Shown here: piece after piece, positions 34,318-45,476 of the stretch
Layout: each line of letters begins with the position of its first letter
Numbering within the stretch: the stretch's first letter is position 1
Assembly: GCF_003018235.1 (NCBI RefSeq)
Contig: NZ_CP027437.1
Length of the DNA stretch: 64,000 nt
Source of the DNA: Escherichia coli
GTDB lineage: Bacteria > Pseudomonadota > Gammaproteobacteria > Enterobacterales > Enterobacteriaceae
Reading direction: 5' to 3' (one strand)
Translations under genes and position numbers: made by a program
The notes under the pieces: generated by a model
Database searches by the model: none
What the model was told of the DNA's origin: nothing
The model's input: only the letters and a program-made list of their open reading frames with translations

Positions 34318-34518
34318 TTAATTTGATTTATTTGCATCCATTAGCGCTTTTAACTGCTCCGGCGTAAACGGTGGTTTGCGTCGGTGCAACATCGCATGGC
34401 AATTAGGGCACACAGGAAGCAAATCATTAACTGGATCCAGCTGGTAATCCTCTTTAATGGCTGAAAGCGGCACCAGGTGATGCACATTAAGCAATTTCAG
34501 AACCGCATGCTCATACAT
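34318..34518 (-). pseudogene. HNH-motif remnant ORF (66 aa), probably the C-terminal fragment of a degraded gene
   Basis: CPNCHAMLH HNH-like motif. Short ORF directly downstream of the 202-aa ORF on the same strand. Confidence 0.4.
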
Positions 34519-34577
34519 ATTTCCCCCTAAGTTTGCTCACTGCCTTTAATTTATGTCACAGGCAATGTAATTCACCT

Positions 34578-34649
34578 GAAGCTCATCTTGAATCTGTCCT
34601 TCTACTTAGTCATTACCCTACTGGCACAACCGACCTCAAGATGAGCTTC
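34578..34649. repeat. Perfect 14-bp inverted repeat GAAGCTCATCTTGA / TCAAGATGAGCTTC separated by 44 bp
   Basis: Direct reading of the sequence. Lies between the 202-aa ORF stop and the HNH remnant. Confidence 0.7.
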
Positions 34650-34655
34650 TTACTT

Positions 34656-35264
34656 TTAACGATGTATCAGAACAATCTTGCGCCGGGAGAATAGCGTTTC
34701 CGCAGACAGCTGGAATTTATATTCCGCGGCCTTCAGCTTTCGCGATTTAAGCATTTTCATCGTGATACCCCTTATTTTCCCTGACTCAACCTGTCTCTTG
34801 ATTTCGCCGGTGCTCAGCATGAGCTGCTTTTGCAAAATCGACAGCAGGCTGACCTGAAACGAACGGGAAATCCTGACGCTAACCTTGACCCATTTGCCGG
34901 GAGAAAGGCTGGCTAACCACTGCTCCTGAATGCGAAAATCAGGCCGACCCGATAGCTCTGCGTTGTTCCGCTTCAGCATCGCGATATCACAGGAAAAATG
35001 TTGAACCGTGGCTGCATCGTTGCTCATCAGCCGGTTATGAAGTTCGCGGTCAATTTTGCTGACGTGCAGGCGCGAAAATAGGGAGATATTCCAGGTGTAA
35101 TCACAGTGTGTGCATTTATAGATACTCCACACGTCCAGCACCTTCTTTTGCGAATTAATCCGAAATGCACCTGATGGCGTGAAGTCCCGTTTAATGTTGC
35201 ATGAAGGGCATCGCTTCGCAATGCGCTGATACCCCACGGGCGTGACGGTCCATGTAACTTTCAT
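34656..35264 (-). CDS. Hypothetical Cys-rich (zinc-finger-like) protein
   Basis: 202-aa ORF with CPSCN...CTHCDYTW motifs. No confident family assignment. Confidence 0.45.
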   Translation of the reverse strand: MKVTWTVTPVGYQRIAKRCPSCNIKRDFTPSGAFRINSQKKVLDVWSIYKCTHCDYTWNISLFSRLHVSKIDRELHNRLMSNDAATVQHFSCDIAMLKRNNAELSGRPDFRIQEQWLASLSPGKWVKVSVRISRSFQVSLLSILQKQLMLSTGEIKRQVESGKIRGITMKMLKSRKLKAAEYKFQLSAETLFSRRKIVLIHR

Positions 35265-35559
35265 AACCTACCTTTTTTAACCCATACAAAACCGGATCCG
35301 TACTGAACGGACCATGGATGTTTATGTATGAAAAATATTTAAGAGATATTTTTCAGAGGGTTAAAAAAAGATTTCCAACTATGCAATCCTGTCGGTGAGC
35401 AAAGAGATATAGCGAGACTATCAAAACGGCAATTATTGGGTATATGAGTTCAATCAATATTCATGATGGTTATGGCTTGTTCTATTGATCTGACACATTA
35501 AACACGGCGCATTAATTTTGTATGTTTTATGAACAACCCAACAACAAAAGGAGCGCGAT

Positions 35560-35811
35560 ATGACACAGCACGAACGGTTTTGTCAGGCCTGCGGAATGCC
35601 GATGTCCGCACCTGATGCGCAGGGGAGTAGCGATAAATACTGTGCATACTGCAGCGATAGCAACGGCAATCTTAAACCCTGGGAAGAGGCGGTATCAGGC
35701 TTGGCCAGCTTCCTTGATTCCTGGCAAAAAGTCGGTCCAGAAGAAGCACAGAAGCGTGCAAAACGTTATCTGACGGCAATGCCTGCCTGGGCTCATAAAG
35801 CGGACGAGTGA
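35560..35811 (+). CDS. Small zinc-ribbon protein (hypothetical)
   Basis: 83-aa ORF with CQACGMP...CAYCSD (CxxC-N-CxxC). Confidence 0.45.
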   Translation: MTQHERFCQACGMPMSAPDAQGSSDKYCAYCSDSNGNLKPWEEAVSGLASFLDSWQKVGPEEAQKRAKRYLTAMPAWAHKADE

Positions 35812-35875
35812 ATAACAAAGTCAGGGTGATTTAGGCAGTCTATCTTCACTCCGCTGATTCCATTAAGGAGAGCCG

Positions 35876-36268
35876 ATGTTTTCTCACATTATGCTTGGAA
35901 CCAACAACCTGCCACGCGCCATTGCATTCTACGATCCGTTGATGGATATGCTGGGGTATCCCCGCGGCGGCAGGAAGAGGAGATCGCATGGTGGGGCGTT
36001 TTCAACGGTAATAACACTACGGCACTGGGTATCAGTAGGCCATTTGATAAACAGGTTGCCACGACCCGAAATGGAGTGATGGTCGCCCTGATTGCGCGTT
36101 CTGCCGAACACATCCAGCAAGTTTCATGTGCTAGCTTTAAATCACGGTGGCACTGACGAGGGAGCACCTGGCCAGCGTCCGCATTACGGCGAAGGGTTCT
36201 ACAGCGCTTACGTCAGAGACACCGATGGCAACAAGCTGGCTTACGTTTATTACACCGCACAATCCTGA
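35876..36268 (+). pseudogene. VOC/glyoxalase-family gene disrupted by frameshifts
   Basis: The N-terminal part MFSHIMLGTNNLPRAIAFYDPLMDMLGYPR is in one frame. The middle (EEEIAWWGVFNGNNTTALGISRPFDKQVATTRNGVMVALIARSAEHIQQV) and C-terminal (HVLALNHGGTDEGAPGQRPHYGEGFYSAYVRDTDGNKLAYVYYTAQS) parts are recovered only by shifting frame. Confidence 0.6.
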
Positions 36269-36512
36269 GAACGATAAAGCGGGGGCCTCAGCGCCCCCAC
36301 CTGAAACTAAACCGATCCCGCAGATGTCAATGAGCGTTGAACGAGTTGATAAATGCCGAGATGTCTGACTGTTTTTACGCCAGAACTCCATGGTGTGACA
36401 ACCATACACATACTCCCTTCTTGACACCTTTAAACCATTTAACCGCATGCCTCTGTCTGCCCTGCAGGGACGGCTGATGCCTGTGTGTTGTCTGGCGGTA
36501 AGGAACAATACT

Positions 36513-36674
36513 ATGTACGCAAAATCCTTTATCGCTCTCGACGGGAATGGTCGTCTGACCGGTGCCCGTACTGCGCAGACCGCCCCTTACGATCGTTATA
36601 CCTGCCACCTCTGCGGTAGCGTGCTGCAATACCATCCTGAATACATCACCGAACGCCCGTGCTTTGAACAGTAA
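36513..36674 (+). CDS. Small hypothetical protein (53 aa)
   Basis: ATG preceded by AGGA. Contains CHLCGS. No family recognised. Confidence 0.3.
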   Translation: MYAKSFIALDGNGRLTGARTAQTAPYDRYTCHLCGSVLQYHPEYITERPCFEQ

Positions 36675-37266
36675 CCAACACACTGACAGAGGGCGGCGAA
36701 AATGCTTTATGCAAATCTTGATGCAAAGGCAGCCAGACGAATTCGTAAGTTACGCTTTTACGTGGCAGATACTCAAAGCAGACTGGCATTGTAGCGACGA
36801 TTGCCACGGTGAACGCTATTGTATGGCATGTAGTACCTGAGACTTCAGCCGCCCAGTAGATATAGCATCATGAAAAAACTGAAATGCTTTCTTGCCAACA
36901 ACTCACTGAGCTAGTATGCCTCCACCGATGTAACAATTAGAGCAAGCGTCAAAGTGCGAAACTGCCCTCACGTAGCTGCAAGTTAACACCAGGAAATCCT
37001 GGTTCAAACACGACCAGCTCTATGTTAGCGGCAAGCAATCGTTGAACTAAACGCATATGCAGCCGGAGATGAAAGTTAGGAAAAAAGCAGAGGCTGATAA
37101 GAATTATGCACGTTGAGCTGGGATCGTAATACCCCACTTAAAATGTACAAGGGGAGTAGTCTAATGATGTTAAATACGAACCTTCAGTATTGTTCATTCA
37201 CCAATTTTCCCATATTCTCTCATCATTAATATTCTCTGCCGAATTTTATAGGGCTAACTCGCTGAA

Positions 37267-37473
37267 ATGAATGACAAAGCTTTAACCTTGAAAGATGTGG
37301 TGGCTTACTTAAAGTTGGCAGAAAAAACAGCGTATAGGTTGACTAGCGAAGGCAAATTGCCGGGATTTAAGGTTGAAGGCTCATGACGCTTCAAACGAGA
37401 GGATTTAGATATGTGGATTGAAGGTCAGAAGACTCAAAGCTACCCGAGTATCACAAAATCCAATCGTGGTTGA
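37267..37473 (+). pseudogene. AlpA/excisionase-type helix-turn-helix regulator gene interrupted by an in-frame TGA
   Basis: MNDKALTLKDVVAYLKLAEKTAYRLTSEGKLPGFKVEGS-stop-RFKREDLDMWIEGQ. The stop at 37384-37386 sits where this family has a conserved Trp (TGG). Confidence 0.6.
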
Positions 37474-37666
37474 TCAAGTGGATAAACATGAAAAGTCGGT
37501 AGCCCTCAAAGGCCACTTGCCACATGCAGTGAAGCAAGCCGTTGTGCAAGCTCTACTGAAAGAAGGTGATATCGCCCGAACGTTGCTCAAGGATCCACAA
37601 GTTATGGCAAGTTATGTTGAGCTGATTTTCGACATGATGAAGCAGAATAAAAATATGAATATCTAA
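37418..37666 (+). CDS. Hypothetical small ORF (TTG start), overlapping the HTH remnant out of frame
   Basis: 82-aa ORF from the track. Non-ATG start and no recognisable motifs. Confidence 0.25.
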   Translation: MKVRRLKATRVSQNPIVVDQVDKHEKSVALKGHLPHAVKQAVVQALLKEGDIARTLLKDPQVMASYVELIFDMMKQNKNMNI

Positions 37667-37708
37667 AAGATTTTGGGCTATCTATTACGTTTTAAAATGA
37701 GATAAATA

Positions 37709-40246
37709 ATGATAAATGACCATGAAGAACTAGAACTTGCTAAAGCTCAGGCAAAAGAAATATGGAAGATCCTTGATTATGTTCGAGGAGCATCACCTAT
37801 ATCTAATTATCGCTCATTAGCGTATTCAATCTTCTTCGTACGCTATCTTCAATCCAATACAGGTCAGCATTTTGAGGCAGAAAGGTTCGACTCTTTTAAT
37901 GTCATCGCCCAGTATTCCTACGATCTTGTAAACTATGCCGTTCAACTTGGATTGATTCATAGCGACGTATCTAAATTCTTAATTTATTATTTAGAAAACA
38001 CACTCCGTTCATTTGTCAATATTGATGAGTCTTTTGTTCGTTATGCAATTAGAGATGGTCTACTCAATAAAACCCCTGCAATAGCGTCGCTTTCTTTATC
38101 AGAACTGGATTTACTTTTTGCCGAGAATGAAGGTAAGTCAGGAGGTGAGTTTTATACCCCTAGAGACGTCAACTTATTGGTTAAAATATTAGGATTGAGT
38201 TATCAACCAAAGTCAATATGTGACCCATTTGCAGGTGCTGGAAACACAGCATTTCCTTTTGCCAATACTGGTATTGAAAAAGTTAGGATTGATACTCAAG
38301 AAATTAATAGAGATGCTTACTTTAAACTAGTAATAAGTAGAGTCATCAGGAAAATAGAAGGTCGAGACTATTTCGGCGATTCCCTATCACAACCATTATA
38401 TCAAGAAAATAAATATGATCTGATAGTTTCTTTCCCACCTTTTGGCATGAAAATTCCTAAAGCCACTCGAAATAATATTTACTATAAAACAAGTAATAAG
38501 TGGCTGGATATTACTGAAATCTTGCCAGAAAGTAGAAGTGATTGGTTTATAACATTATCAATGCTTCCAGCCCTTTCTGAGGGGGGTAAGATACTAGTAG
38601 GTATGTCACTTGGGGCTTTGACAAGAGCAGGCTCTGAGGCAAAGGTTCGTGAGTATTTAGTCTCTCGCGGAATTATCGAACAAGTAATTCTTTTACCTAA
38701 AAATATTTATTACTCTACGGCTATCTCAACTGTACTTCTTGTCCTCAACTCAGGAACAAGTAACATAAATAACAGAAGTATTAAATTTGTAGATGCTTCA
38801 CTGTTTTACGAGCCTGCCCGTGGTCGAAACACCCTCACAACAAAAAATATAAATGAGATCGTAGAGGCTTGTCATAAAGATGGCCGATTTAGTATTAGTT
38901 CATCTCATACCCAAATAGCAAACAGAGACTTTAATTTAGATCCGTCTCTTTATGTACGTAAAGATCTCAAAATCAGTGAGGTTTCTTTAAAAAATTTTAG
39001 AGGATACTCTGACTTTAAAGTTTCGATACATCCTTCTTTAAATGTATTGGTTGGTGAGAACGGCGTCGGGAAAACTTCGATATTAGAAGCATTAGCATGT
39101 GGCCTTGGTCCTTTCCTTACTGCTATGCCTGATGCTAAAGGAAAACTGATAAAAAAATCAGATATCCATATAAGTTCAAAAGGAATCGCAAATTATGCTC
39201 GAATATCGATTGAAACAACATCAAGTTTAAGTTGGGATCTTGTGGCAAAGGGGGTTGATGTTTCCGAGCCCCCTAAGATAGGAACATCAGCATTAACTAG
39301 CTACGCTACTCATCTTGTAGATAGTCAGTCTGAATATCCACTCATTGCTTATTATGGGACTAACCGTGCTCTTACTTCTACCAGTTCTAAAGTTGCAATA
39401 AATCCATTCGAGAAAGAAAATCGTGGGGAAGGTTATGACTTTGCTTTAGATGCTAAAGTTAACTACGGCATCTTAAAGAACTGGTTTTCAAAAATAGAGG
39501 TTGATGAGCTTCGAAAACGTGATGAACTAAAAGACCATAAATTCATTCATCCGGCTAAGAGACTTGTTTCAGAGGCTGTTTACCAGATTGTTGATCGAGC
39601 TACATGCTTGGAGTTCGACAAAAATAGTAACGATGTTATGGTTCATTGGAAAAATGAGCAGGGAGAGTGCGTAAAGCTTACATTGGAACAACTAAGTGAA
39701 GGGTATAGAAATATGGTATCCCTGACCATTGACCTAGTGAGGCGTGCTTATTTACTTAATCCTACCAAACCGAAACCGCTAACAGTTAATGGGATCGTTT
39801 TAATTGATGAAATTGAACTTCACTTGCACCCTAGATGGCAGCAAAAGATTTTAAATGATCTTACTAAGCTGTTTAAGAATATTCAGTTTATTGTCACGAC
39901 ACATAGTCCTCAAGTCTTAACAACAATCAAAGCCGATTGTATCCGTATTGTTTCCGTCAATGCTAACGAAGCAAAATTAGTGACAGGAACTACTACTTAC
40001 GGTTCTGAAAGCTCAAGAATGTTGGAAGATGTTTTAGGTGGTAACAATCGCGCCCAACATCTTGATATTGTTAAAAAACTAAACCGTTATACAGAGTTAG
40101 TAGAGGCCGACAAATGGGATACCGATGAGGCATTAGAACTCAAAAAAGAGTTATATAAATGGGGTGGTCAGACAGAAGACGAGCTTCAAAAATTAGAAAC
40201 TGATATTCGAATTCGCGAGTTCGAGCGTGGCAATGAAAAAGATTAA
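37709..40246 (+). CDS. Fusion protein: N-terminal HsdM-like N6-adenine DNA methyltransferase domain plus C-terminal ABC/AAA_21-type ATPase domain (PtuA-like)
   Basis: 845-aa ORF. Methyltransferase motifs GGEFYTPRDV, ICDPFAGAGNTAF (motif I) and DLIVSFPPFG (motif IV region). ATPase motifs: Walker A VLVGENGVGKTS, signature-like LSEGYRNMVSL, Walker B VLIDEIELHLHP, H-loop FIVTTHSP. Confidence 0.75.
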   Translation: MINDHEELELAKAQAKEIWKILDYVRGASPISNYRSLAYSIFFVRYLQSNTGQHFEAERFDSFNVIAQYSYDLVNYAVQLGLIHSDVSKFLIYYLENTLRSFVNIDESFVRYAIRDGLLNKTPAIASLSLSELDLLFAENEGKSGGEFYTPRDVNLLVKILGLSYQPKSICDPFAGAGNTAFPFANTGIEKVRIDTQEINRDAYFKLVISRVIRKIEGRDYFGDSLSQPLYQENKYDLIVSFPPFGMKIPKATRNNIYYKTSNKWLDITEILPESRSDWFITLSMLPALSEGGKILVGMSLGALTRAGSEAKVREYLVSRGIIEQVILLPKNIYYSTAISTVLLVLNSGTSNINNRSIKFVDASLFYEPARGRNTLTTKNINEIVEACHKDGRFSISSSHTQIANRDFNLDPSLYVRKDLKISEVSLKNFRGYSDFKVSIHPSLNVLVGENGVGKTSILEALACGLGPFLTAMPDAKGKLIKKSDIHISSKGIANYARISIETTSSLSWDLVAKGVDVSEPPKIGTSALTSYATHLVDSQSEYPLIAYYGTNRALTSTSSKVAINPFEKENRGEGYDFALDAKVNYGILKNWFSKIEVDELRKRDELKDHKFIHPAKRLVSEAVYQIVDRATCLEFDKNSNDVMVHWKNEQGECVKLTLEQLSEGYRNMVSLTIDLVRRAYLLNPTKPKPLTVNGIVLIDEIELHLHPRWQQKILNDLTKLFKNIQFIVTTHSPQVLTTIKADCIRIVSVNANEAKLVTGTTTYGSESSRMLEDVLGGNNRAQHLDIVKKLNRYTELVEADKWDTDEALELKKELYKWGGQTEDELQKLETDIRIREFERGNEKD

Positions 40247-41021
40247 TAAGCTAGATGAGCCAAATCGGCTTGGTGTGTTCAAGGCTACTCATCCTAATGC
40301 TTTGTGGGAGAGGGATAAAAACTCAATTGAAGAGGCTTTCCGTTGTTGCATTGCCAGATATCAAGAAACTCTACAACAATTACGTACGGACCAAGGTAAT
40401 TTATGTGCATATTGTGAACAGGATTTAATGTCTGGAACTAATGGGGCATTAGATGACTGCCGTATTGAGCATTTTCATCCGAAATCTAAACGTGAACAGG
40501 GAGAACCTAATTGGGCTTTGGAATGGAGCAATTTGTTAGTTGTTTGCTGTGGCGGAAATCAAAGTAAAGTTGTTAATCCTGGGCAAAGATTTGATGCTGA
40601 TCCCAAAAATTACTCTTGCGATGTACCAAAGAGTGACAAAATTTTAGATACCATTATATTAAATCCACTTAATTTACCTGAATTAAATATCTGGAAGTTT
40701 CATCGTTCTTCGGGGCAAATTTCCGTAAATGAAGATTCCTGTTTAGAATTTGGTATAAGTGTTGAAATGGCACACCAAACAATTAAAGAATTGAATTTAA
40801 ATTCCCCTCGATTAATTAGATTTCGAAAGGCTATTCTAAATAATCTCAACATTTTAATAACAGAAAGGCTGAAGAAGGGACAAACGGTAGAGCAAGCTGT
40901 TAGATTTATTGCCATATCACTCTTTAGAAAAAATGGAGCAGGTGATTGGCCCTCTTTTTTTAGTGCAACACGATATTATTTAGGTCAGCAGGCTGAGCTT
41001 GTTTTAGCCCAACCTATTTAA
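40233..41021 (+). CDS. HNH endonuclease (PtuB/TIGR02646-like), translationally coupled to the upstream fusion gene
   Basis: 262 aa from MKKINKLDEP. HNH motifs CAYCE, CRIEHFHPKS, NLLVVCCGGN. Its start overlaps the 3' end of the upstream gene by 14 nt. Confidence 0.7.
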   Translation: MKKINKLDEPNRLGVFKATHPNALWERDKNSIEEAFRCCIARYQETLQQLRTDQGNLCAYCEQDLMSGTNGALDDCRIEHFHPKSKREQGEPNWALEWSNLLVVCCGGNQSKVVNPGQRFDADPKNYSCDVPKSDKILDTIILNPLNLPELNIWKFHRSSGQISVNEDSCLEFGISVEMAHQTIKELNLNSPRLIRFRKAILNNLNILITERLKKGQTVEQAVRFIAISLFRKNGAGDWPSFFSATRYYLGQQAELVLAQPI

Positions 41022-41040
41022 CATACTTTCAACTAGTTAG

Positions 41041-41063
41041 AGAGGCTGCTTTTGGCAGCCTCT
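41041..41063. terminator. Hairpin between convergent genes (AGAGGCTGC-TTTTG-GCAGCCTCT), likely bidirectional terminator
   Basis: Perfect 9-bp stem with a 5-nt loop in the 60-bp gap between the 3' ends of the convergent genes. Confidence 0.55.
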
Positions 41064-41081
41064 TGCAGAGTGCAGAATCGA

Positions 41082-42515
41082 CTACAGGGGCGATGCTAGC
41101 TCAGAGAACCAAGCGTGAACTGATCTGTAAAATGTGCTGATTGACCAAAACTCACTGCATGCAGCAACTAACAGAATGACCACTAAGAGGATCACTACAG
41201 TAGAAGTCATTCTTTCCACACGGCAGTATGATCCCATCGCATCTTTTACAGGTTGTCTAGCCAGTTCCTGATAATCCAGCTCATCCAGAAATCCGTATAA
41301 TTTAGTTCTCCAGGTGGTTCTAACTCTTTCAAGTAATGAAATTGTTTGCCTATTAATATAGACAGACATTCCATAGGAAATAACTATATAAACCGCGATA
41401 GCACAAAAAACCAAAGCGTAAATATTTTGCAAACCAACTGATTTTACTGCATCCAGACTGTAGCGAATAACCAAGACACTAATTACAAGAGCCATATCTT
41501 TCCATAAGGAAGAGGACAAATCTCGGGATTGCTGAATGATCTTTTGTGTATCTTCAGCCAGCGTTTTCCGCAAATCACCCAAGGATTTCATAGTATCTTT
41601 ACCACCAGTCCTGATATGGGCCTTATACATTAACCGTGCAGACTCCAAAGCTGATGAGAGTCGAAGCATCACTCCCTCACAAAAGTTCAGGTCTGAAGGC
41701 CACTCTCTAGCCAGCTCGCTGGACAAAAACGTATGTTTCAGCTCAGTTTCATTCCCCTCTAGAAAAATCCACTTTGCCGCTTCCTGGATAATATCAAAAG
41801 CAGGTAACGCTGCCGTCTCATCGCCGAATGCTATTTTTCTGGGAGGCTTTCCCGCAAGCCCCACCATCATTTCGTCAGCAAAAAAAAGTTCATTTGCAAA
41901 ACATTTCAGCAACTCTCGGCATCCTAGCAATTTCCATATCTTGATTGCTTCATCAGTCTTCTCACTACAAGTTTCAAGTATCCAAGGGGCAATGGCATCT
42001 GGAGGAAGAAAAGTTGTTGAATAACATTTGATGATACTTTTTGTTACTGAAGGCTTAGTGATAGCTGTTGCATCACCAGCACTCACCGGCTGTATCTCCT
42101 TCCATGGATGCACATACCAACTTATTGTCTGAAAGCCTTCAGTAATAAACAGCCCATAAATATGTTTGTACCGACAGAGTTTGCTATCTTGAAGTAAAAA
42201 AGTGCGCCATCCTTCTAAGGTAAAAAGCCTCAGTATCCCCGGAATTTCATTATAAGTGATGGTAATGTAGTGCTTCTGCCCTGGGACCCCCTCTCTCGGA
42301 TGAATAACATCTCTGCTCTCATCGATAAAAACGATCTTGAGATCTTCCGCATGTACATCCACTATTTCTCCCCATAAATCAAGGGATTCACTATCCATTG
42401 TGGCGGAAATAAAAAGCTTATGGATAGACACCTGCTGGTCCTCTGTGATCACAAGGTCAGATAAATGTCGTGAGTGGCATATAGCCTTACCGATTTTTTC
42501 CAATATCGATATCAT
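41082..42515 (-). CDS. Hypothetical protein with two C-terminal transmembrane helices (membrane-anchored), second gene of a two-gene cassette
   Basis: 477-aa ORF. Hydrophobic stretches LVISVLVIRYSL...IYALVFCAIAVYIVISYGMSVYI and TSTVVILLVVILLVAACSEFW. No recognisable catalytic motif. Confidence 0.5.
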   Translation of the reverse strand: MISILEKIGKAICHSRHLSDLVITEDQQVSIHKLFISATMDSESLDLWGEIVDVHAEDLKIVFIDESRDVIHPREGVPGQKHYITITYNEIPGILRLFTLEGWRTFLLQDSKLCRYKHIYGLFITEGFQTISWYVHPWKEIQPVSAGDATAITKPSVTKSIIKCYSTTFLPPDAIAPWILETCSEKTDEAIKIWKLLGCRELLKCFANELFFADEMMVGLAGKPPRKIAFGDETAALPAFDIIQEAAKWIFLEGNETELKHTFLSSELAREWPSDLNFCEGVMLRLSSALESARLMYKAHIRTGGKDTMKSLGDLRKTLAEDTQKIIQQSRDLSSSLWKDMALVISVLVIRYSLDAVKSVGLQNIYALVFCAIAVYIVISYGMSVYINRQTISLLERVRTTWRTKLYGFLDELDYQELARQPVKDAMGSYCRVERMTSTVVILLVVILLVAACSEFWSISTFYRSVHAWFSELASPL

Positions 42516-43548
42516 CTGTTACCAATCCTGCAGTCACAATTACAATTCGTTTTCGCCCGTCTTCCATATTTTCTACTTCTGGTGCATTGTCTTCATCGTA
42601 GATAATGATTACATCTTCCAATGTTTCCAGTTTTCTCTTCCGGGGCTTCTGAATGTTATCGGGAATGATGCGGAAAGATTCACCTGAAATTCCTAAATCC
42701 TTTATTTTACGAAAAAAATACTTAACCAGAGGGTGTTCTTCCTCCAAAGGACCAAAAATCTGGGTCAACAATGGCAGTGCTTCATCAGTATTAAAATCCT
42801 GTTCGCCATGGCGTAAAGTTTCATAAATTTTGTTTACTCCGCTGCGCTTGATCTCTTCAGGTAGTAAGTTTCGATGCTTTTTATATACATCTTTTAATAC
42901 AGTAACTAGCTTATCGCTGAGCTGAGTTGGGTCATTGACGCGCTTAACCTGTAGAAATCGTTCAAAATAGACAGAGATGTTAGTACGTTTGCTGCGATCT
43001 CGTACGACAACTAATCCGCCCGGCAAATCTTCATTCAGCCGTACCAGTGCGATTTTCTGCATGGCTTCGGCTTTTTTAACGAAACTTTCGCGAAAGCGTT
43101 CGAGTTTAGGTACCTGAAACTCATCTCCTTCAACATCCAGCACATAACGGACTACATCTTCATTGTCATACTTAATCAACGCATACAGTTTCTCATCGTT
43201 GAGTGTATGAAGTTCAAAAAGGAAAAAAACGCCCATACTGGCATTCTTGGTATGGTGGTGAGACTGAAAATCGCTTGCCAATAAGGAGGATTGCTCAGTA
43301 AAGCAGCCGATATCGGTGTCTGCATGTTCCCTGATGATCCTCAGGATTCGCTCTGTATTTGACAACTCCTTAAAATGAAACATATTGCCACTAACTGCAG
43401 ATTTGATACGTTCCAGAAAGAAATCAACATGCTCCGGAGGGGAAATTTCGCTGAGTAAAACAGGGACTTCCAACTCACCGCCAACCACATGAAAAATCAT
43501 CCTTTTTATTGATAATGCATTGATTTCTTCATCCGTTAAAAAACTCAT
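42487..43548 (-). CDS. Hypothetical cytoplasmic protein (353 aa), first gene of the two-gene cassette; weak NdpA/YejK-like resemblance at most
   Basis: ATG start confirmed. Overlaps the downstream ORF by 29 nt. Acidic C-terminus. No confident domain assignment. Confidence 0.5.
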   Translation of the reverse strand: MSFLTDEEINALSIKRMIFHVVGGELEVPVLLSEISPPEHVDFFLERIKSAVSGNMFHFKELSNTERILRIIREHADTDIGCFTEQSSLLASDFQSHHHTKNASMGVFFLFELHTLNDEKLYALIKYDNEDVVRYVLDVEGDEFQVPKLERFRESFVKKAEAMQKIALVRLNEDLPGGLVVVRDRSKRTNISVYFERFLQVKRVNDPTQLSDKLVTVLKDVYKKHRNLLPEEIKRSGVNKIYETLRHGEQDFNTDEALPLLTQIFGPLEEEHPLVKYFFRKIKDLGISGESFRIIPDNIQKPRKRKLETLEDVIIIYDEDNAPEVENMEDGRKRIVIVTAGLVTDDIDIGKNR

Positions 43549-43744
43549 TTTTATTTCTCAATATAGTGTTTATATTTACTACCGTGAGCCATCTTACCTA
43601 AGCGTAGAACGTGGCGGAAAACACGATAACATTATTGCATAGCTTACGGCGTAACTTATCCTCGCCCCAGACAGAATAAACGTCAAAATAAAATAATGAA
43701 AATATGATCGAGACAGCATTAGCTGCCCCGCTTTCTTAGACTTT

Positions 43745-44998
43745 TTACATTATTAGGGCAAAATCAAACGGACTCACCCCCTTCTCCCGATTCGCATCCA
43801 GATAATTTGCCCACCACTGCAGCATCAACCTACGCTCCCCAAGATGTTCCGCCTTATGGATGTATGCCGCCCGCACAGAGCTACGCTCCTGATGGCTCAT
43901 CTGCCGCTCCACTGCATTCCTCGACCACAATCCTGATTCAATAAGTGAACTACAGGCCATCGTCCTGAAACCATGCCCACAGACTTCCGTTTTGGTGTCA
44001 TAGCCCATAACTCGCAAAGCCTTGTTCACCGTATTCTCACTCATCGGCTTATGCGGATCGTGATCGCCCACAAAAATCAGCTCTCGATTTCCATTCATGC
44101 TTTTGATCTTTTCCAAAATAGCTAAGGCCTGCCGCGATAAGGGTACAAGATGGGGAGTTCGCATCTTCGAACCACGCTGAGAATGTTTAACACCGTCCAA
44201 CGGTTCACGCTCACCGGGGATCGTCCACATGGCCGTTTCAAAATCCACTTCTGACCAACGGGCAAAGCGCAGTTCGCTTGAACGGATGAAAACTAACAAA
44301 GTGAGTTCGACAGCCAGTCGAGTTAACGGCCTGCCGGAGTAATGATCAATGCGGTGAAGTAATTCAGGTATGCGGTTAAGCTCCAGAGCCGCACGATGCT
44401 GTCTTTTAGCAGTAGCAACCGCACCGGTAATCTCTTGCGCGGGGTTGTAGTCGATTAAGCCGCTCTGAACGGCAAAGCGCATAATCGCGGTAGTTCGCTG
44501 CTGTAAACGGGCGGCGACTTCAAGACGTCCGGATGACTCCACCGCTTTAATGGGTACAAGAAGATCCCGAGTCTTAAGCTCTGCAATGTTCCGCTTACCG
44601 ATAGCAGCAAAGAGATTATCTTCTAGGCTTTTCAATACACGAGCACTATGCGATGCAGACCACTTCTGATTACTGGCATGCCAGTCTCTGACGACCACTT
44701 CAAACGTTATCGCCTCTTGCTCCTGTTCTACCTTAACCGCTTTCTTGTTTTCACTGGGATCGACGCCGTTCGCTAAAAGCTTACGCGCTTCGTCTCGCCG
44801 CGATCGAGCATCAGCTAACGAAACTTCAGGATACTTCCCTAGCGCCAGCATCTTCTCTTTACCACCGAAACGATAACGAAGCCGCCAGTATTTGGAGCCG
44901 TTAGGGTGAACCAGCAAAACCATGCCTTCACCATCAGTAAGTTTATAGGCTTTTGCTTCAGGCTTTGCCGAACGAACCTTCACATCACTCAGAGCCAT
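43745..44998 (-). CDS. int: P4-family tyrosine integrase
   Basis: 417 aa from MALSDVKVRSAKPEAKAYKLTDGEGMVLLVHPNGSKYWRLRYRFGGKEKMLALGKYP (P4-type integrase N-terminus). Catalytic region HGFRTMA...Y. Lies directly beside the tRNA-Leu 3' end. Confidence 0.9.
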   Translation of the reverse strand: MALSDVKVRSAKPEAKAYKLTDGEGMVLLVHPNGSKYWRLRYRFGGKEKMLALGKYPEVSLADARSRRDEARKLLANGVDPSENKKAVKVEQEQEAITFEVVVRDWHASNQKWSASHSARVLKSLEDNLFAAIGKRNIAELKTRDLLVPIKAVESSGRLEVAARLQQRTTAIMRFAVQSGLIDYNPAQEITGAVATAKRQHRAALELNRIPELLHRIDHYSGRPLTRLAVELTLLVFIRSSELRFARWSEVDFETAMWTIPGEREPLDGVKHSQRGSKMRTPHLVPLSRQALAILEKIKSMNGNRELIFVGDHDPHKPMSENTVNKALRVMGYDTKTEVCGHGFRTMACSSLIESGLWSRNAVERQMSHQERSSVRAAYIHKAEHLGERRLMLQWWANYLDANREKGVSPFDFALIM

Positions 44999-45196
44999 GA
45001 TGAATATCCTTTCAAGGGTTCTGTGTGGGTACAAACATTATCGAACCGGGATATACCCGCAGTTGTACCCGCATCAGTAAGTTGATGTAGATTGAATCAG
45101 GTTGACTTAGGTTGAGTGAAAAAGCGAGGAAAGCCTTGCGGATACTGGATTTCAGGCATAAAAAAAGACCTCAGTTGAGGTCTATTTACATACTTA

Positions 45197-45281
45197 TGGT
45201 GCCGAAGGCCGGACTCGAACCGGCACGTATTTCTACGGTTGATTTTGAATCAACTGCGTCTACCGATTTCGCCACTTCGGC
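45197..45281 (-). tRNA. leuX: tRNA-Leu (anticodon CAA)
   Basis: The minus-strand sequence reads GCCGAAGTGGCGAAATCGGTAGACGCAGTTGATTCAAAATCAACCGTAGAAATACGTGCCGGTTCGAGTCCGGCCTTCGGCACCA (85 nt), with a CAA anticodon loop and a CCA end. Confidence 0.9.
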
Positions 45282-45476
45282 ACTGAAGAGGTATGCGGAA
45301 AACGTTGTGGATTATACCTGTCGCACGCCACCATGCAAGCGCCAGCTTGCTCGCACCTCGCTAAGTGCTGAAATTTTCAGCATTGCATACAGTGATGTGT
45401 AACCTTTGTCACACTCCAGGCACCCCGCCCTGCCATGCTCTACACTTCCCAGACAACACCAGAGAAGGACCAAAAA

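What the first reader, a model, noticed from the sequence alone, without database searches (positions are those of the whole stretch)
37267..37473. Excisionase-like HTH gene upstream of the defence module inactivated by a single TGG-to-TGA change
The reading frame encodes an AlpA-type HTH protein (MNDKALTLKDVVAYLKLAEKTAYRLTSEGKLPGFKVEGS-stop-RFKREDLDMWIEGQ). The stop sits where this family has a conserved Trp. Loss of the excisionase or regulator would lock the island in place and could derepress or deregulate the downstream cassette. Read-through or a sequencing error is an alternative.
Basis: seen in the sequence. Interest (0 to 1): 0.4.

Follow-up and report, generated by a model that had tools for sequence, protein, structure and literature searches.

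The report
Inactivated leader regulator of defence operon
A small DNA-binding regulator gene that normally heads a restriction-modification defence operon is cut short here by a real, inherited stop codon, after the restriction genes had already been deleted. It is an ordinary decaying gene, not the island's excision factor.

Summary
ATG 37267 opens a 68-codon frame with TGA (37384-37386) where 120 of 120 homologues have Trp. It is not a sequencing error. TGA or TAA sits at this codon in every E. coli, Klebsiella and Pantoea assembly I read that carries one of the 39-residue alleles. Close relatives (Klebsiella grimontii, one Logan contig) keep TGG, so TGG is ancestral.

The protein is Pfam HTH_17 and close to NCBIfam MAD1, not AlpA. 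Sister islands carry a separate genuine AlpA gene, which this window lacks.

In intact relatives this HTH, with a near-invariant upstream promoter-like element, is the first gene of restriction-type operons. Here the operon was hsdM-hsdS-hsdR, followed by a methylase-like::PtuA fusion and PtuB (Septu-like). In this island lineage:
- a 6.4-kb deletion with TA microhomology removed hsdMSR;
- it gave the HTH a junk 10-residue tail;
- it left a 62-codon hsdR fragment that RefSeq annotates as a hypothetical protein.

The nonsense change, G37E, I5A and an operator-region change came afterwards. One E. coli sublineage then went from TGA to TAA. The relics evolve without constraint, while the downstream cassette is under strong purifying selection.

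Verdict: a pseudogenised regulator. Its effect on cassette expression is plausible but untested, and an effect on island excision is unsupported. Interest is low.

The parts
37190..37222 (+). Conserved promoter/operator-like element upstream of the HTH gene: TTGTTC (37190-37195, -35-like), a 17-nt spacer, TATTCT (37213-37218, -10-like). It contains imperfect direct repeats ATTyyCyCA. The E. coli/Klebsiella clade has C->A at 37200.
   Evidence: Near-invariant across E. coli-island, Pantoea, Vibrio and Nitrosomonas loci, while the sequence further upstream cannot be aligned. The 19-nt core (37204-37222) occurs in 49 species genomes, and in 36 of them a MAD1-like HTH ORF starts 23-46 nt downstream. 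The C->A change at 37200 is shared by all copies with E37 plus the stop, and is absent from the Pantoea and K. grimontii clades. The promoter/operator role is inferred. The consensus scan did not call it, because the -35-like hexamer matches only 3 of 6 positions.
37267..37386 (+). Truncated HTH_17 / MAD1-like ORF: 39 codons plus TGA. RefSeq annotates it as WP_097336610.1, 'helix-turn-helix transcriptional regulator'.
37384..37386 (+). Premature stop TGA (followed by C) replacing the invariant Trp40 codon TGG. It is TAA in an E. coli sublineage.
37375..37377 (+). GAA (Glu37) replacing a near-invariant Gly (GGA), a second derived lesion in the wing.
   Evidence: Position 37 is G in 119 of 120 homologues, and the only E is this same allele. 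It is GGA in L005-L016 and GAA only in the E. coli/Klebsiella clade.
37387..37440 (+). The remaining native HTH coding sequence (codons 41-58), now downstream of the stop. It would encode the second wing strand and the C-terminal helix.
   Evidence: AlphaFold model: strands at 34-36 and 39-41, helix at 44-56, pLDDT 92-95. Invariant residues R41 F42 K43 D46 W50 I51.
37441..37473 (+). Non-native tail (YPSITKSNRG plus stop) created by the deletion. It is the 3' end of hsdR read out of frame. The deletion junction is at 37441/37442, with TA microhomology.
   Evidence: blastn: window 37091-37442 = L007 29-380 and window 37441-41036 = L007 6786-10381. Junction sequences. The tail has pLDDT below 50.
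37442..37666 (+). 3' remnant of hsdR (the last ~74 codons). The ORF 37478-37666 is annotated in RefSeq as hypothetical protein WP_244578218.1.
   Evidence: Collinear and in frame with the end of the 1071-residue HsdR gene of L007. No family hits apart from a weak PADLOC C-terminal match.
37709..40246 (+). Intact 845-residue fusion. The N-terminal part is an HsdM-like N6-methylase domain with motif IV FPPF instead of NPPF. The C-terminal part is a PtuA ATPase.
   Evidence: Pfam N6_Mtase plus AAA_15/21/23. PADLOC PtuA 353.7 bits. pN/pS 0.10-0.14. FPPF is present in all copies, against NPPF in the HsdM of L007.
40233..41021 (+). PtuB HNH endonuclease (Septu partner), intact.
   Evidence: PADLOC PtuB 334.1 bits. 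NCBIfam TIGR02646. 12 synonymous and 0 nonsynonymous differences from L013.
43745..45034 (-). P4-type tyrosine integrase of the island, next to tRNA-Leu(CAA) at 45197-45281 (-). The island runs from about 34482 to the tRNA.

Best explanation
The ORF is a pseudogenised copy of a MAD1-family (Pfam HTH_17) winged-helix gene.

In intact relatives this gene, together with a near-invariant promoter/operator-like element just upstream, is the leader gene of restriction-type defence operons. In this island family the operon was HTH, hsdM, hsdS, hsdR, methylase-like::PtuA, PtuB.

The order of events, reconstructed from allele comparisons:
1. A 6.4-kb illegitimate deletion (TA microhomology) removed hsdM, hsdS and all but the last ~74 codons of hsdR. 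It fused the HTH gene's last sense codon to out-of-frame hsdR sequence.
2. TGG became TGA at the invariant Trp40, most simply once, in an ancestor of the Pantoea, Klebsiella, Lelliottia and E. coli copies of the island.
3. In the E. coli/Klebsiella clade, G37E, I5A and a C->A change in the conserved upstream element followed.
4. In an E. coli sublineage that also carries an ISEc31 insertion upstream, TGA became TAA.

The 39-residue product lacks the second wing strand and the C-terminal helix, so it is most likely non-functional (inference from the model and from conservation).

The Septu-like cassette stays intact and under constraint. It now lies about 490 nt downstream of the leader promoter-like element, with no predicted terminator between them. 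If the HTH was an autorepressor, as functionally analogous leader regulators are, its loss leaves that promoter unregulated (inference). The gene has no demonstrable role in island excision.
For: - The stop is real and inherited; TGG is ancestral.
- W40 is invariant and G37 near-invariant.
- Family assignment: HTH_17 58.1 bits and no Phage_AlpA hit. NF047737 MAD1 76.9 bits and TIGR01764 36.9 bits. PADLOC mad1. Homologues are named MAD1 by NCBI and UniRef.
- Deletion: the blastn breakpoints and junction sequences. Intact loci read HTH-hsdM-hsdS-hsdR-fusion-PtuB.
- Leader role: in all 10 sampled contexts of intact copies the gene is immediately followed by hsdMSR. In 31 species genomes the next gene is N6_Mtase/HsdM (14), Mrr (6-7), ResIII/helicase (5-6), MmeI, another methylase or a reverse transcriptase.
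- The upstream element is conserved across genera.
- Relaxed constraint on the HTH: copies linked to hsdMSR show 2 synonymous and 0 nonsynonymous differences. L007 to L013 shows 1 and 5. L013 to the window shows 0 and 4. Fisher p = 0.0028.
- Window against L013: the relics (HTH plus hsdR remnant) show 0 synonymous and 6 nonsynonymous differences, against 34 and 9 in the cassette (p = 3.6e-4).
- Single origin is favoured: 2 informative sites join the E. coli and Pantoea clades, and 0 support either alternative.
- Structure: W40 lies in strand 39-41 and the C-terminal helix spans 44-56.
- No terminator is predicted between 37267 and 37709.
- In Pseudomonas MADS, deleting mad1 had limited effect on defence (bioRxiv 10.1101/2023.03.30.534895).
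- RptR is a non-homologous leader ORF of a type I restriction-modification island. It represses its own promoter through direct repeats (PMC12255303).
Against: - No expression or binding data exist for this family, so repressor, activator or another role is unknown.
- The intact allele coexists with the same deletion in K. grimontii and others (15 contigs) and in L005. The deletion alone therefore did not make the gene useless everywhere, or harmful everywhere.
- L005 shows pN/pS of about 0.11 despite carrying the deletion.
- All substitution counts are small, and recombination among island copies is evident. The left flank is 94% identical to L007 and the right flank 98.8%.
- All six changes among the stop alleles I hold fall in codons 1-40 and none in codons 41-69 (p about 0.04). 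That could hint the stub is not fully neutral.
- UGA followed by C is a weak terminator in E. coli (own knowledge: Poole et al. 1995, EMBO J 14:151, listed as reference 13 in PMC9841425). Some full-length protein could therefore be made from the TGA allele.
Confidence: 0.72

Rival explanations
1. Adaptive loss. After the deletion put the Septu-like cassette directly behind the leader promoter, the full-length HTH repressed it. Knocking out the HTH (TGA), then tightening the leaky stop (TAA) and altering the operator (C->A at 37200), were selected to switch the defence cassette on.
For: - The stop alleles are commoner than the intact one among deletion derivatives. The E. coli 39-residue allele alone (P0121) is on 83 contigs, against 7 cluster-listed contigs (15 contigs read) for intact P0127.
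- A second hit landed on the same codon, TGA to TAA, among only 8 differences in 4.2 kb. The chance of that is roughly 0.06-0.2% post hoc.
- pN/pS is at least 1 in this lineage.
- The cassette is under strong purifying selection.
- The operator-region change occurs only in the clade that has the stop.
- For RptR, unregulated expression matters.
Against: - The sampling is dominated by E. coli.
- The TAA sublineage is a single clade that shares an IS insertion, so it counts as one event.
- The intact allele persists with the same cassette in K. grimontii.
- Every observation also fits neutral decay.
- The direction of regulation is unknown.
Confidence: 0.15
2. Leaky stop. UGA-C is read through by tRNA-Trp at a low rate, re-creating the wild-type residue, so the gene still supplies a small dose of full-length regulator.
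For: The stop is UGA followed by C, the weakest E. coli termination context, and tRNA-Trp is the near-cognate reader of UGA (own knowledge: Poole et al. 1995). The downstream frame stays open and unchanged for 28 codons.
Against: - The read-through product would still carry G37E at a near-invariant Gly, plus a non-native tail.
- An E. coli sublineage has TAA, which tRNA-Trp does not read, with no compensating change.
- There is no stimulatory RNA structure after the stop (z = -0.25) and no Rfam hit.
Confidence: 0.06
3. The 39-residue stub (helix-turn-helix without the wing and C-terminal helix) is itself a functional small DNA-binding or dominant-negative peptide.
For: The stub still matches HTH_17 above threshold (31.8 bits). 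It is kept as an ORF in four genera. All changes among the stop alleles fall in codons 1-40.
Against: - It lacks the invariant residues W40-K43, D46, W50 and I51 that form strand 2 and helix 3.
- The changes within the stub hit strongly conserved positions (I5A, G37E, K9E, D3G), which looks like decay rather than conservation.
- No natural family member among the 120 best homologues, or in the 36 genomes, ends here.
Confidence: 0.04
4. One reading: an AlpA-type excisionase or regulator whose loss locks the island in the chromosome.
For: HTH_17 is the 'excisionase family' DNA-binding fold (TIGR01764, 36.9 bits). The gene lies on an integrase-bearing tRNA-Leu island.
Against: - There is no Phage_AlpA hit.
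- Sister islands have a distinct AlpA gene elsewhere, and the window has none.
- The gene is 6 kb from the integrase, and in relatives it is always glued to a restriction-type operon.
- The island's distal part is already missing here, and no att repeat of 13 nt or more was found.
Confidence: 0.02
5. Sequencing or assembly error, or an alternative genetic code.
For: A database protein (P0001) shows W at this position.
Against: P0001 also reads the second TGA as W, and it does not translate from its own contigs under table 11. It is a code-4 gene call on the same TGA allele. TGA or TAA is present in every independent assembly of these alleles that I read, about twenty. The host is E. coli.
Confidence: 0.01

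Closest known systems
MAD1, first gene of the methylation-associated defence system MADS (NCBIfam NF047737; PADLOC mad1; bioRxiv 10.1101/2023.03.30.534895)
   Same: A small HTH_17 protein encoded as the first gene, directly upstream of an HsdM-like methylase in a defence operon. The closest database homologues (75-88% identity) are named MAD1. In MADS it is an accessory, 'widespread regulator' type component, and deleting it had limited effect on defence.
   Different: The restored sequence scores 76.9 bits, just under the 80-bit cut-off. The locus has no MAD3-MAD8. The partners here were a classical type I hsdMSR plus a Septu-like pair. This copy is truncated.
RptR, the RMS-proximal transcriptional regulator of the EPEC type I R-M/DarTG2 island (PMC12255303, PDB 9R2Z)
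   Same: Works alike (inferred). It is a small first ORF of a type I R-M defence island and autorepresses the island promoter through direct repeats. It is widely conserved together with its binding site.
   Different: Not homologous. RptR is 79 residues with a four-helix fold and a TAGCTA site. A search of the PDB with this HTH finds nothing. The operator-like repeats here are ATTyyCyCA.
AlpA / P4-type island regulators and excisionases (Pfam PF05930; TIGR01764 'excisionase family' domain)
   Same: The same broad MerR-like winged-helix superfamily, with a similar size and a GxWRF-like wing motif containing Trp. It occurs on integrase-bearing tRNA islands.
   Different: No PF05930 hit. A genuine AlpA is a separate gene in sister islands (MTEQISLLDDQLVDMRFITKLTGL...). 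This gene travels with restriction operons, not with integrases.
Controller (C) proteins of type II R-M systems and the WYL regulators BrxR/CapW
   Same: A small HTH regulator encoded at the head of a restriction or defence operon (concept as summarised in PMC12255303).
   Different: Different HTH families (XRE-type, WYL). Homology was not tested further here.
Septu (PtuA/PtuB) and retron Ec78-type PtuAB effectors: the downstream cassette
   Same: Strong PADLOC and NCBIfam hits to the PtuA ATPase and the PtuB HNH nuclease.
   Different: PtuA carries a 420-residue N-terminal HsdM-like methylase domain whose catalytic motif IV is FPPF rather than NPPF. There is no reverse transcriptase. In relatives the pair sits at the 3' end of a type I R-M operon.

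Membership tests
Pfam HTH_17 (PF12728) | HMM score above the gathering threshold (27 bits) | tested here: met
   58.1 bits with Trp restored; 31.8 bits for the 39-residue stub.
AlpA (Pfam Phage_AlpA, PF05930) | HMM match to PF05930 | tested here: not met
   No PF05930 hit at E <= 0.01. The true AlpA genes of sister islands do hit PF05930.
AlpA (Pfam Phage_AlpA, PF05930) | Is the island's single AlpA-type regulator gene, travelling with the integrase module | tested here: not met
   The gene is 6 kb from the integrase and co-oriented with, and adjacent to, the defence cassette. In relatives it is always followed by restriction genes. A separate AlpA gene exists in sister islands and is absent from the window.
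Excisionase-family DNA-binding domain (TIGR01764) | Domain-model score above the cut-off (28.8 bits) | tested here: met
   36.9 bits. This is a fold or domain label only.
Excisionase-family DNA-binding domain (TIGR01764) | Directs excision by the cognate integrase | not testable with these tools
   This needs an excision assay. The genomic context argues against it.
MAD1 of MADS (NCBIfam NF047737) | Equivalog score of at least 80 bits | tested here: not met
   76.9 bits for the Trp-restored sequence. The shortfall is narrow, and the derived substitutions (G37E, I5A, A12V) lower the score.
MAD1 of MADS (NCBIfam NF047737) | Part of a MADS operon (MAD6, MAD7 and MAD8 are mandatory in the authors' model) | tested here: not met
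   No MAD family reaches its cut-off in the neighbouring proteins. There is only a 40-bit partial MAD3 hit to the PtuA ATPase, against a cut-off of 420. The authors' model is described.
Leader HTH of restriction-type operons (the subfamily defined here by the HTH plus the 19-nt upstream element) | The conserved element ATTTTCCCWTATTCTCTCA lies 23-46 nt upstream of the start codon | tested here: met
   Window 37204-37222, 44 nt before ATG 37267.
Leader HTH of restriction-type operons (the subfamily defined here by the HTH plus the 19-nt upstream element) | Immediately followed by a restriction or modification gene | tested here: not met
   The hsdM and hsdS genes are gone, and only a 3' fragment of hsdR remains. 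The condition was met ancestrally, as shown by the collinear loci L006-L008, L020 and L021.
Leader HTH of restriction-type operons (the subfamily defined here by the HTH plus the 19-nt upstream element) | Intact ORF with the invariant wing and helix-3 residues (G37, W40-K43, D46, W50, I51) | tested here: not met
   G37E and W40stop.
Septu (PtuA + PtuB), downstream cassette | An adjacent PtuA ATPase and PtuB HNH nuclease | tested here: met
   PADLOC PtuA 353.7 bits and PtuB 334.1 bits.
RptR family | Sequence or fold similarity to RptR (PDB 9R2Z) | tested here: not met
   0 PDB sequence hits at E <= 1. Foldseek against the PDB gives no RptR match. RptR is a 79-residue four-helix protein.

The most novel reading that the evidence does not exclude
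The HTH and its near-invariant 33-nt promoter/operator element form a portable, self-contained regulatory 'leader cassette'. It has been grafted in front of many different restriction-type defence operons (type I, Mrr, type III-like, MmeI, RT-containing) across Gammaproteobacteria and beyond. In this island the allele series TGG, then TGA, then TAA, plus an operator mutation, would record selection to silence that regulator once its cognate R-M genes were deleted, so derepressing an orphaned methylase-like::PtuA-PtuB (Septu-like) module.
Probability: 0.12. Interest if true: 0.5.

Novelty: new member of a known kind. Interest (0 to 1): 0.2.

Why it matters
The main value is in correcting annotation and interpretation.
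- A RefSeq 'helix-turn-helix transcriptional regulator' (WP_097336610.1, 39 residues) and a 'hypothetical protein' (WP_244578218.1) are two relics of one deletion, not functional genes.
- The HTH should not be read as the island's excisionase.
- The locus gives a clean, dated series of decay steps: deletion, nonsense, missense, operator change, second stop mutation. Meanwhile the neighbouring Septu-like cassette stays under strong constraint. This shows that the cassette works without the adjacent type I R-M system.
- The natural TGG, TGA and TAA alleles are ready-made material for testing what MAD1-type leader regulators do. This is still unknown: only a 'limited effect' of deleting mad1 has been reported.

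Tried and rejected
1. Sequencing error. Rejected, because the stop is present in every independent assembly of these alleles that I read.
2. P0001, the '100% identical full-length protein' with W. Rejected as evidence for a TGG allele. It reads both TGAs as Trp and does not translate from its own contigs under table 11. Their DNA has TGA, so it is a code-4 gene call.
3. Selenocysteine or programmed read-through signal. No structure follows the UGA (z = -0.25) and there is no Rfam hit in 36800-37800. The family residue is Trp, and a TAA allele exists.
4. AlpA membership. No PF05930 hit.
5. AlpA elsewhere in the window. tblastn with three sister-island AlpA proteins gave nothing better than E = 2.8.
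6. attL/attR. No repeat of 13 nt or more of the leuX region occurs elsewhere in the window. Shorter or mismatched repeats were not examined.
7. Solved structures. There were no sequence hits. Foldseek gave only weak matches with E about 1 (RacA, BldC, MerR-like), which I treat as a lead only. The AlphaFold model draws residues 8-27 as one helix, which probably merges the two HTH helices.
8. The sigma-70 and terminator consensus scan found nothing decisive.
9. Independent origins of the stop in the Pantoea and E. coli clades. Not excluded, but a single origin is favoured by only 2 informative sites.
10. tblastn with two HsdM queries under-detected the downstream genes in the 49 genome loci. It was replaced by a Pfam scan of the next ORF.
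11. The paper by Poole et al. 1995 could not be opened. The statement about UGA-C rests on my own knowledge.
Full report
OBSERVATION

With Trp restored it scores 58.1 bits, and the 39-residue stub alone scores 31.8 bits, against a gathering score of 27. The stop replaces a residue that is Trp in all 120 best database homologues. One of those, P0001, is this same allele mistranslated. In 36 further species-representative genomes, found independently through a DNA element, the codon is TGG.

NOT AN ERROR, AND TGG IS ANCESTRAL

The window is E. coli. It is 99.99% identical over 20 kb to GCA_023091305.1. Only 2 of 5426 complete E. coli genomes carry this segment. RefSeq annotates the 39-codon ORF in both as WP_097336610.1, 'helix-turn-helix transcriptional regulator'.

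The codon at position 40 in the loci I read:
- TGA in PapM-32-1, in two Logan assemblies, in L027/L029/L032, in three Klebsiella contigs and in three Pantoea or metagenome contigs.
- TAA in CFSAN018748 and three other E. coli assemblies. Where the upstream sequence is present, these share an ISEc31 insertion.
- TGG in the nearest intact alleles. These have GGA GGC TCA TGG where the window has GAA GGC TCA TGA. They are L013-L016 (K. grimontii and others, protein P0127) and L005.

One trap: database protein P0001 looks like a full-length version with W. It also reads the second TGA as W, and it does not translate from its own contigs under table 11. It is a code-4 gene call on the same TGA allele.

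WHAT THE GENE IS

Pfam gives HTH_17 only, with no Phage_AlpA hit. NCBIfam's best hit is NF047737, 'methylation-associated defense system HTH protein MAD1', at 76.9 bits against a cut-off of 80. The generic excisionase-family domain TIGR01764 scores 36.9 bits. PADLOC gives mad1. The closest homologues, at 75-88% identity, are named MAD1 by NCBI and UniRef.

Genomic context decides the question.
- In every sampled locus with an intact copy, the gene is immediately followed by hsdM-hsdS-hsdR and then by a variable second defence module. These are Logan contigs L006-L008, Pantoea L020 and L021, three Vibrio loci, Nitrosomonas and one metagenome.
- In L006-L008, L020 and L021 that second module is the same 845-residue methylase-like::PtuA fusion plus PtuB found in the window.
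- The same islands also carry a separate, genuine Phage_AlpA gene 0.6-3.5 kb upstream.
- The window has no AlpA homologue. Its island is cut short at 34482, next to nanS.

blastn aligns window 37091-37442 to L007 29-380, and window 37441-41036 to L007 6786-10381. About 6.4 kb is therefore missing: all of hsdM and hsdS and all but the last ~74 codons of hsdR.
- The junction is a 2-nt TA microhomology...caaagcTAg in the HTH stop codon, and ...caccatTAcccgag in hsdR.
- The last 10 codons of the quoted frame (YPSITKSNRG) are therefore hsdR sequence read out of frame.
- The 'hypothetical protein' ORF 37478-37666 (WP_244578218.1) is the in-frame C-terminus of HsdR.
- L005, the K. grimontii group, and the Pantoea, Klebsiella and E. 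coli copies all share this junction. The deletion therefore came before the nonsense mutation.

ORDER OF EVENTS

Relative to the intact K. grimontii allele:
- The Pantoea copies have K9E and W40stop.
- The E. coli/Klebsiella copies have I5A, G37E and W40stop. They also have C->A at 37200 in the conserved upstream element.
- G37 is Gly in 119 of 120 homologues and I5 is Ile in 119 of 120.

With L007 and L008 as outgroup, 2 informative sites join the E. coli and Pantoea clades, and none support the alternatives. A single TGG-to-TGA event is therefore the simplest reading, though the support is weak. The TAA alleles form a sublineage.

SELECTION

Nei-Gojobori counts for the HTH:
- among hsdMSR-linked copies: 2 synonymous, 0 nonsynonymous;
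- L007 to L005: 7 and 3;
- L007 to the intact deletion allele L013: 1 and 5;
- L013 to the window: 0 and 4;
- Fisher test on [[9,3],[1,11]]: p = 0.0028.

Between the window and L013, the two relics (HTH and hsdR remnant) show 0 synonymous and 6 nonsynonymous differences. The methylase-like::PtuA gene shows 22 and 9 (pN/pS 0.12), and PtuB shows 12 and 0. The contrast gives p = 3.6e-4.

The regulator and the hsdR fragment therefore evolve without purifying selection, while the Septu-like cassette is still constrained. All counts are small, and recombination between island copies is evident. The left flank is 94% identical to L007 and the right flank 98.8%.

STRUCTURE

An AlphaFold model of the restored protein has mean pLDDT 82.6, and 92-95 over residues 11-50. 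It places W40 in the second strand of the wing (strands at 34-36 and 39-41), followed by a helix at 44-56. The deletion-derived tail is disordered, with pLDDT below 50.

The 39-residue product lacks strand 2 and helix 3, including the invariant residues W40, R41, F42, K43, D46, W50 and I51. That it is non-functional is my inference. No solved structure matches by sequence. Foldseek gives only weak matches (E about 1) to RacA, BldC and MerR-like domains.

A CONSERVED CIS ELEMENT

The 33 nt at 37190-37222 read TTGTTCATTCaCCAATTTTCCCATATTCTCTCA. They are almost invariant upstream of the HTH in E. coli-island, Pantoea, Vibrio and Nitrosomonas loci, while the sequence further upstream cannot be aligned.
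- The element reads as a -35-like TTGTTC, a 17-nt spacer and a -10-like TATTCT. It contains imperfect direct repeats ATTyyCyCA. The promoter/operator role is inferred, and the consensus scanner did not call it.
- An exact-match scan of one genome per species for the 19-nt core found 49 loci.
- In 36 of them an HTH of this subfamily starts 23-46 nt downstream, always with TGG at codon 40.
- Most of the other 13 are non-Proteobacteria, consistent with chance matches.
- The next gene in 31 of these loci is N6_Mtase/HsdM in 14, Mrr_N/Mrr_cat in 6-7 and ResIII/helicase in 5-6. MmeI, another DNA methylase and a reverse transcriptase occur once each.

The HTH plus this element therefore behaves as a portable leader for restriction-type defence operons.

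MECHANISM AND PRECEDENT

Shown:
- the identity of the gene;
- the deletion;
- the ancestral state and the allele series;
- the loss of constraint on the relics, and the continued constraint on the cassette.

Inferred: the HTH binds the conserved repeats and autoregulates the operon promoter. Precedents:
- In Pseudomonas MADS, mad1 is an accessory, regulator-like first gene, and deleting it had limited effect on defence (bioRxiv 10.1101/2023.03.30.534895).
- RptR is an unrelated 79-residue four-helix protein. It is the first ORF of an EPEC type I R-M/DarTG2 island and represses the island promoter through three direct repeats. The island genes could not be cloned downstream of the unregulated promoter (PMC12255303).

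After the deletion, the methylase-like::PtuA-PtuB pair lies about 490 nt downstream of the leader promoter-like element, with no predicted terminator in between. Loss of the HTH would then leave the pair unregulated.

RIVALS

- Adaptive loss, with derepression of the cassette. This is suggested by the second hit on the same codon (TGA to TAA) among only 8 differences in 4.2 kb, by pN/pS of at least 1, by the operator change and by the commonness of the stop alleles. The intact allele coexists with the same cassette in K. grimontii, and every one of these facts also fits neutral decay.
- Read-through of UGA-C by tRNA-Trp would restore the native residue (own knowledge: Poole et al. 1995). It is undermined by G37E, by the TAA sublineage and by the absence of a stimulatory structure.
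- A functional 39-mer, an excisionase role and a sequencing error are all unlikely, for the reasons given above.

COMPARISON AND NOVELTY

The gene is a damaged member of a known family (HTH_17, MAD1-like) on a known kind of island. The downstream cassette is a Septu pair with an unusual N-terminal methylase-like domain. Nothing here is categorically new.

The finding is ordinary: a pseudogene in a decaying defence locus. Its interest is as an annotation correction and as a natural allele series for testing what MAD1-type leader regulators do. The portable leader cassette and the FPPF methylase-like::PtuA fusion are the more interesting by-products.

Noticed in passing
window 37709-40246 (also L006-L008, L010, L013-L021): PtuA (Septu ATPase) is fused to a 420-residue N-terminal HsdM-like N6-adenine methylase domain. 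Its motif I is intact (DPFAGAGN) but its catalytic motif IV is FPPF instead of NPPF. FPPF is conserved in every copy examined, while the neighbouring true HsdM of L007 has NPPF. This may be a non-catalytic DNA- or SAM-sensing domain. The fusion stays under purifying selection (pN/pS about 0.12) even where the adjacent type I R-M system is deleted.
   Followed up: partly
window 37190-37222; loci L036-L082: A near-invariant 33-nt promoter/operator-like element plus a 57-60-residue HTH_17 gene forms a leader cassette. It is found in front of different restriction-type operons (HsdM, Mrr, ResIII/helicase, MmeI, RT) in Vibrio, Photobacterium, Pseudoalteromonas, Alteromonas, Nitrosomonas, Pseudomonas, Marinobacter, Psychrobacter and MAGs. 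I found no description of the cis element in the papers I read.
   Followed up: partly
window 37478-37666: The RefSeq 'hypothetical protein' WP_244578218.1 (62 residues) is the in-frame C-terminal fragment of a deleted HsdR gene, not an independent gene.
   Followed up: yes
P0001 / P0129 (Logan and ENA contigs L003, L004): Public metagenome protein sets contain a 72-residue 'full-length' version of this protein. It arises from translating both in-frame TGAs as Trp (a code-4 gene call on short contigs). This artefact can make a pseudogene look intact.
   Followed up: yes
L001/L030, L031 (about window 35957-36631): The E. coli sublineage with TAA at codon 40 also carries an ISEc31 (IS3-family) insertion about 0.7 kb upstream of the HTH gene. 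Two further TAA contigs (L033, L034) start just downstream of that position, as expected if the assemblies broke at the IS.
   Followed up: partly
window 34482-45322: Compared with sister islands in PapM-32-1 and Klebsiella, the leuX island here lacks the distal segment (YbaK/EbsC, AlpA, YagK/YfjJ and others) and abuts nanS directly. No direct repeat of 13 nt or more of the tRNA-Leu end was found, so the island may already be unable to excise.
   Followed up: partly
L002 1029-3685 (E. coli PapM-32-1, distal part of the same island): A reverse transcriptase family protein sits next to a phosphoribosyltransferase-like protein (PRTase-CE / wHTH-PRTase_assc domains). It is a likely RT-based defence module and is absent from the window.
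   Followed up: no
window 41082-43548 (-): A conserved gene pair lies between PtuB and the integrase in all island copies: a 477-residue protein with no family hit in Pfam, NCBIfam or PADLOC, overlapping a 353-residue NA37 nucleoid-associated-protein homologue. In some copies the first gene is split or shortened (449, 334 or 169+215 residues).
   Followed up: no
window 37212-37220 and 37229-37237: An exact 9-nt direct repeat ATATTCTCT, spaced 17 nt apart, lies just upstream of the HTH start. The first copy is part of the conserved element. The second copy is specific to the deletion-derivative lineage (ATATTATCT in the hsdMSR-intact loci).
   Followed up: partly
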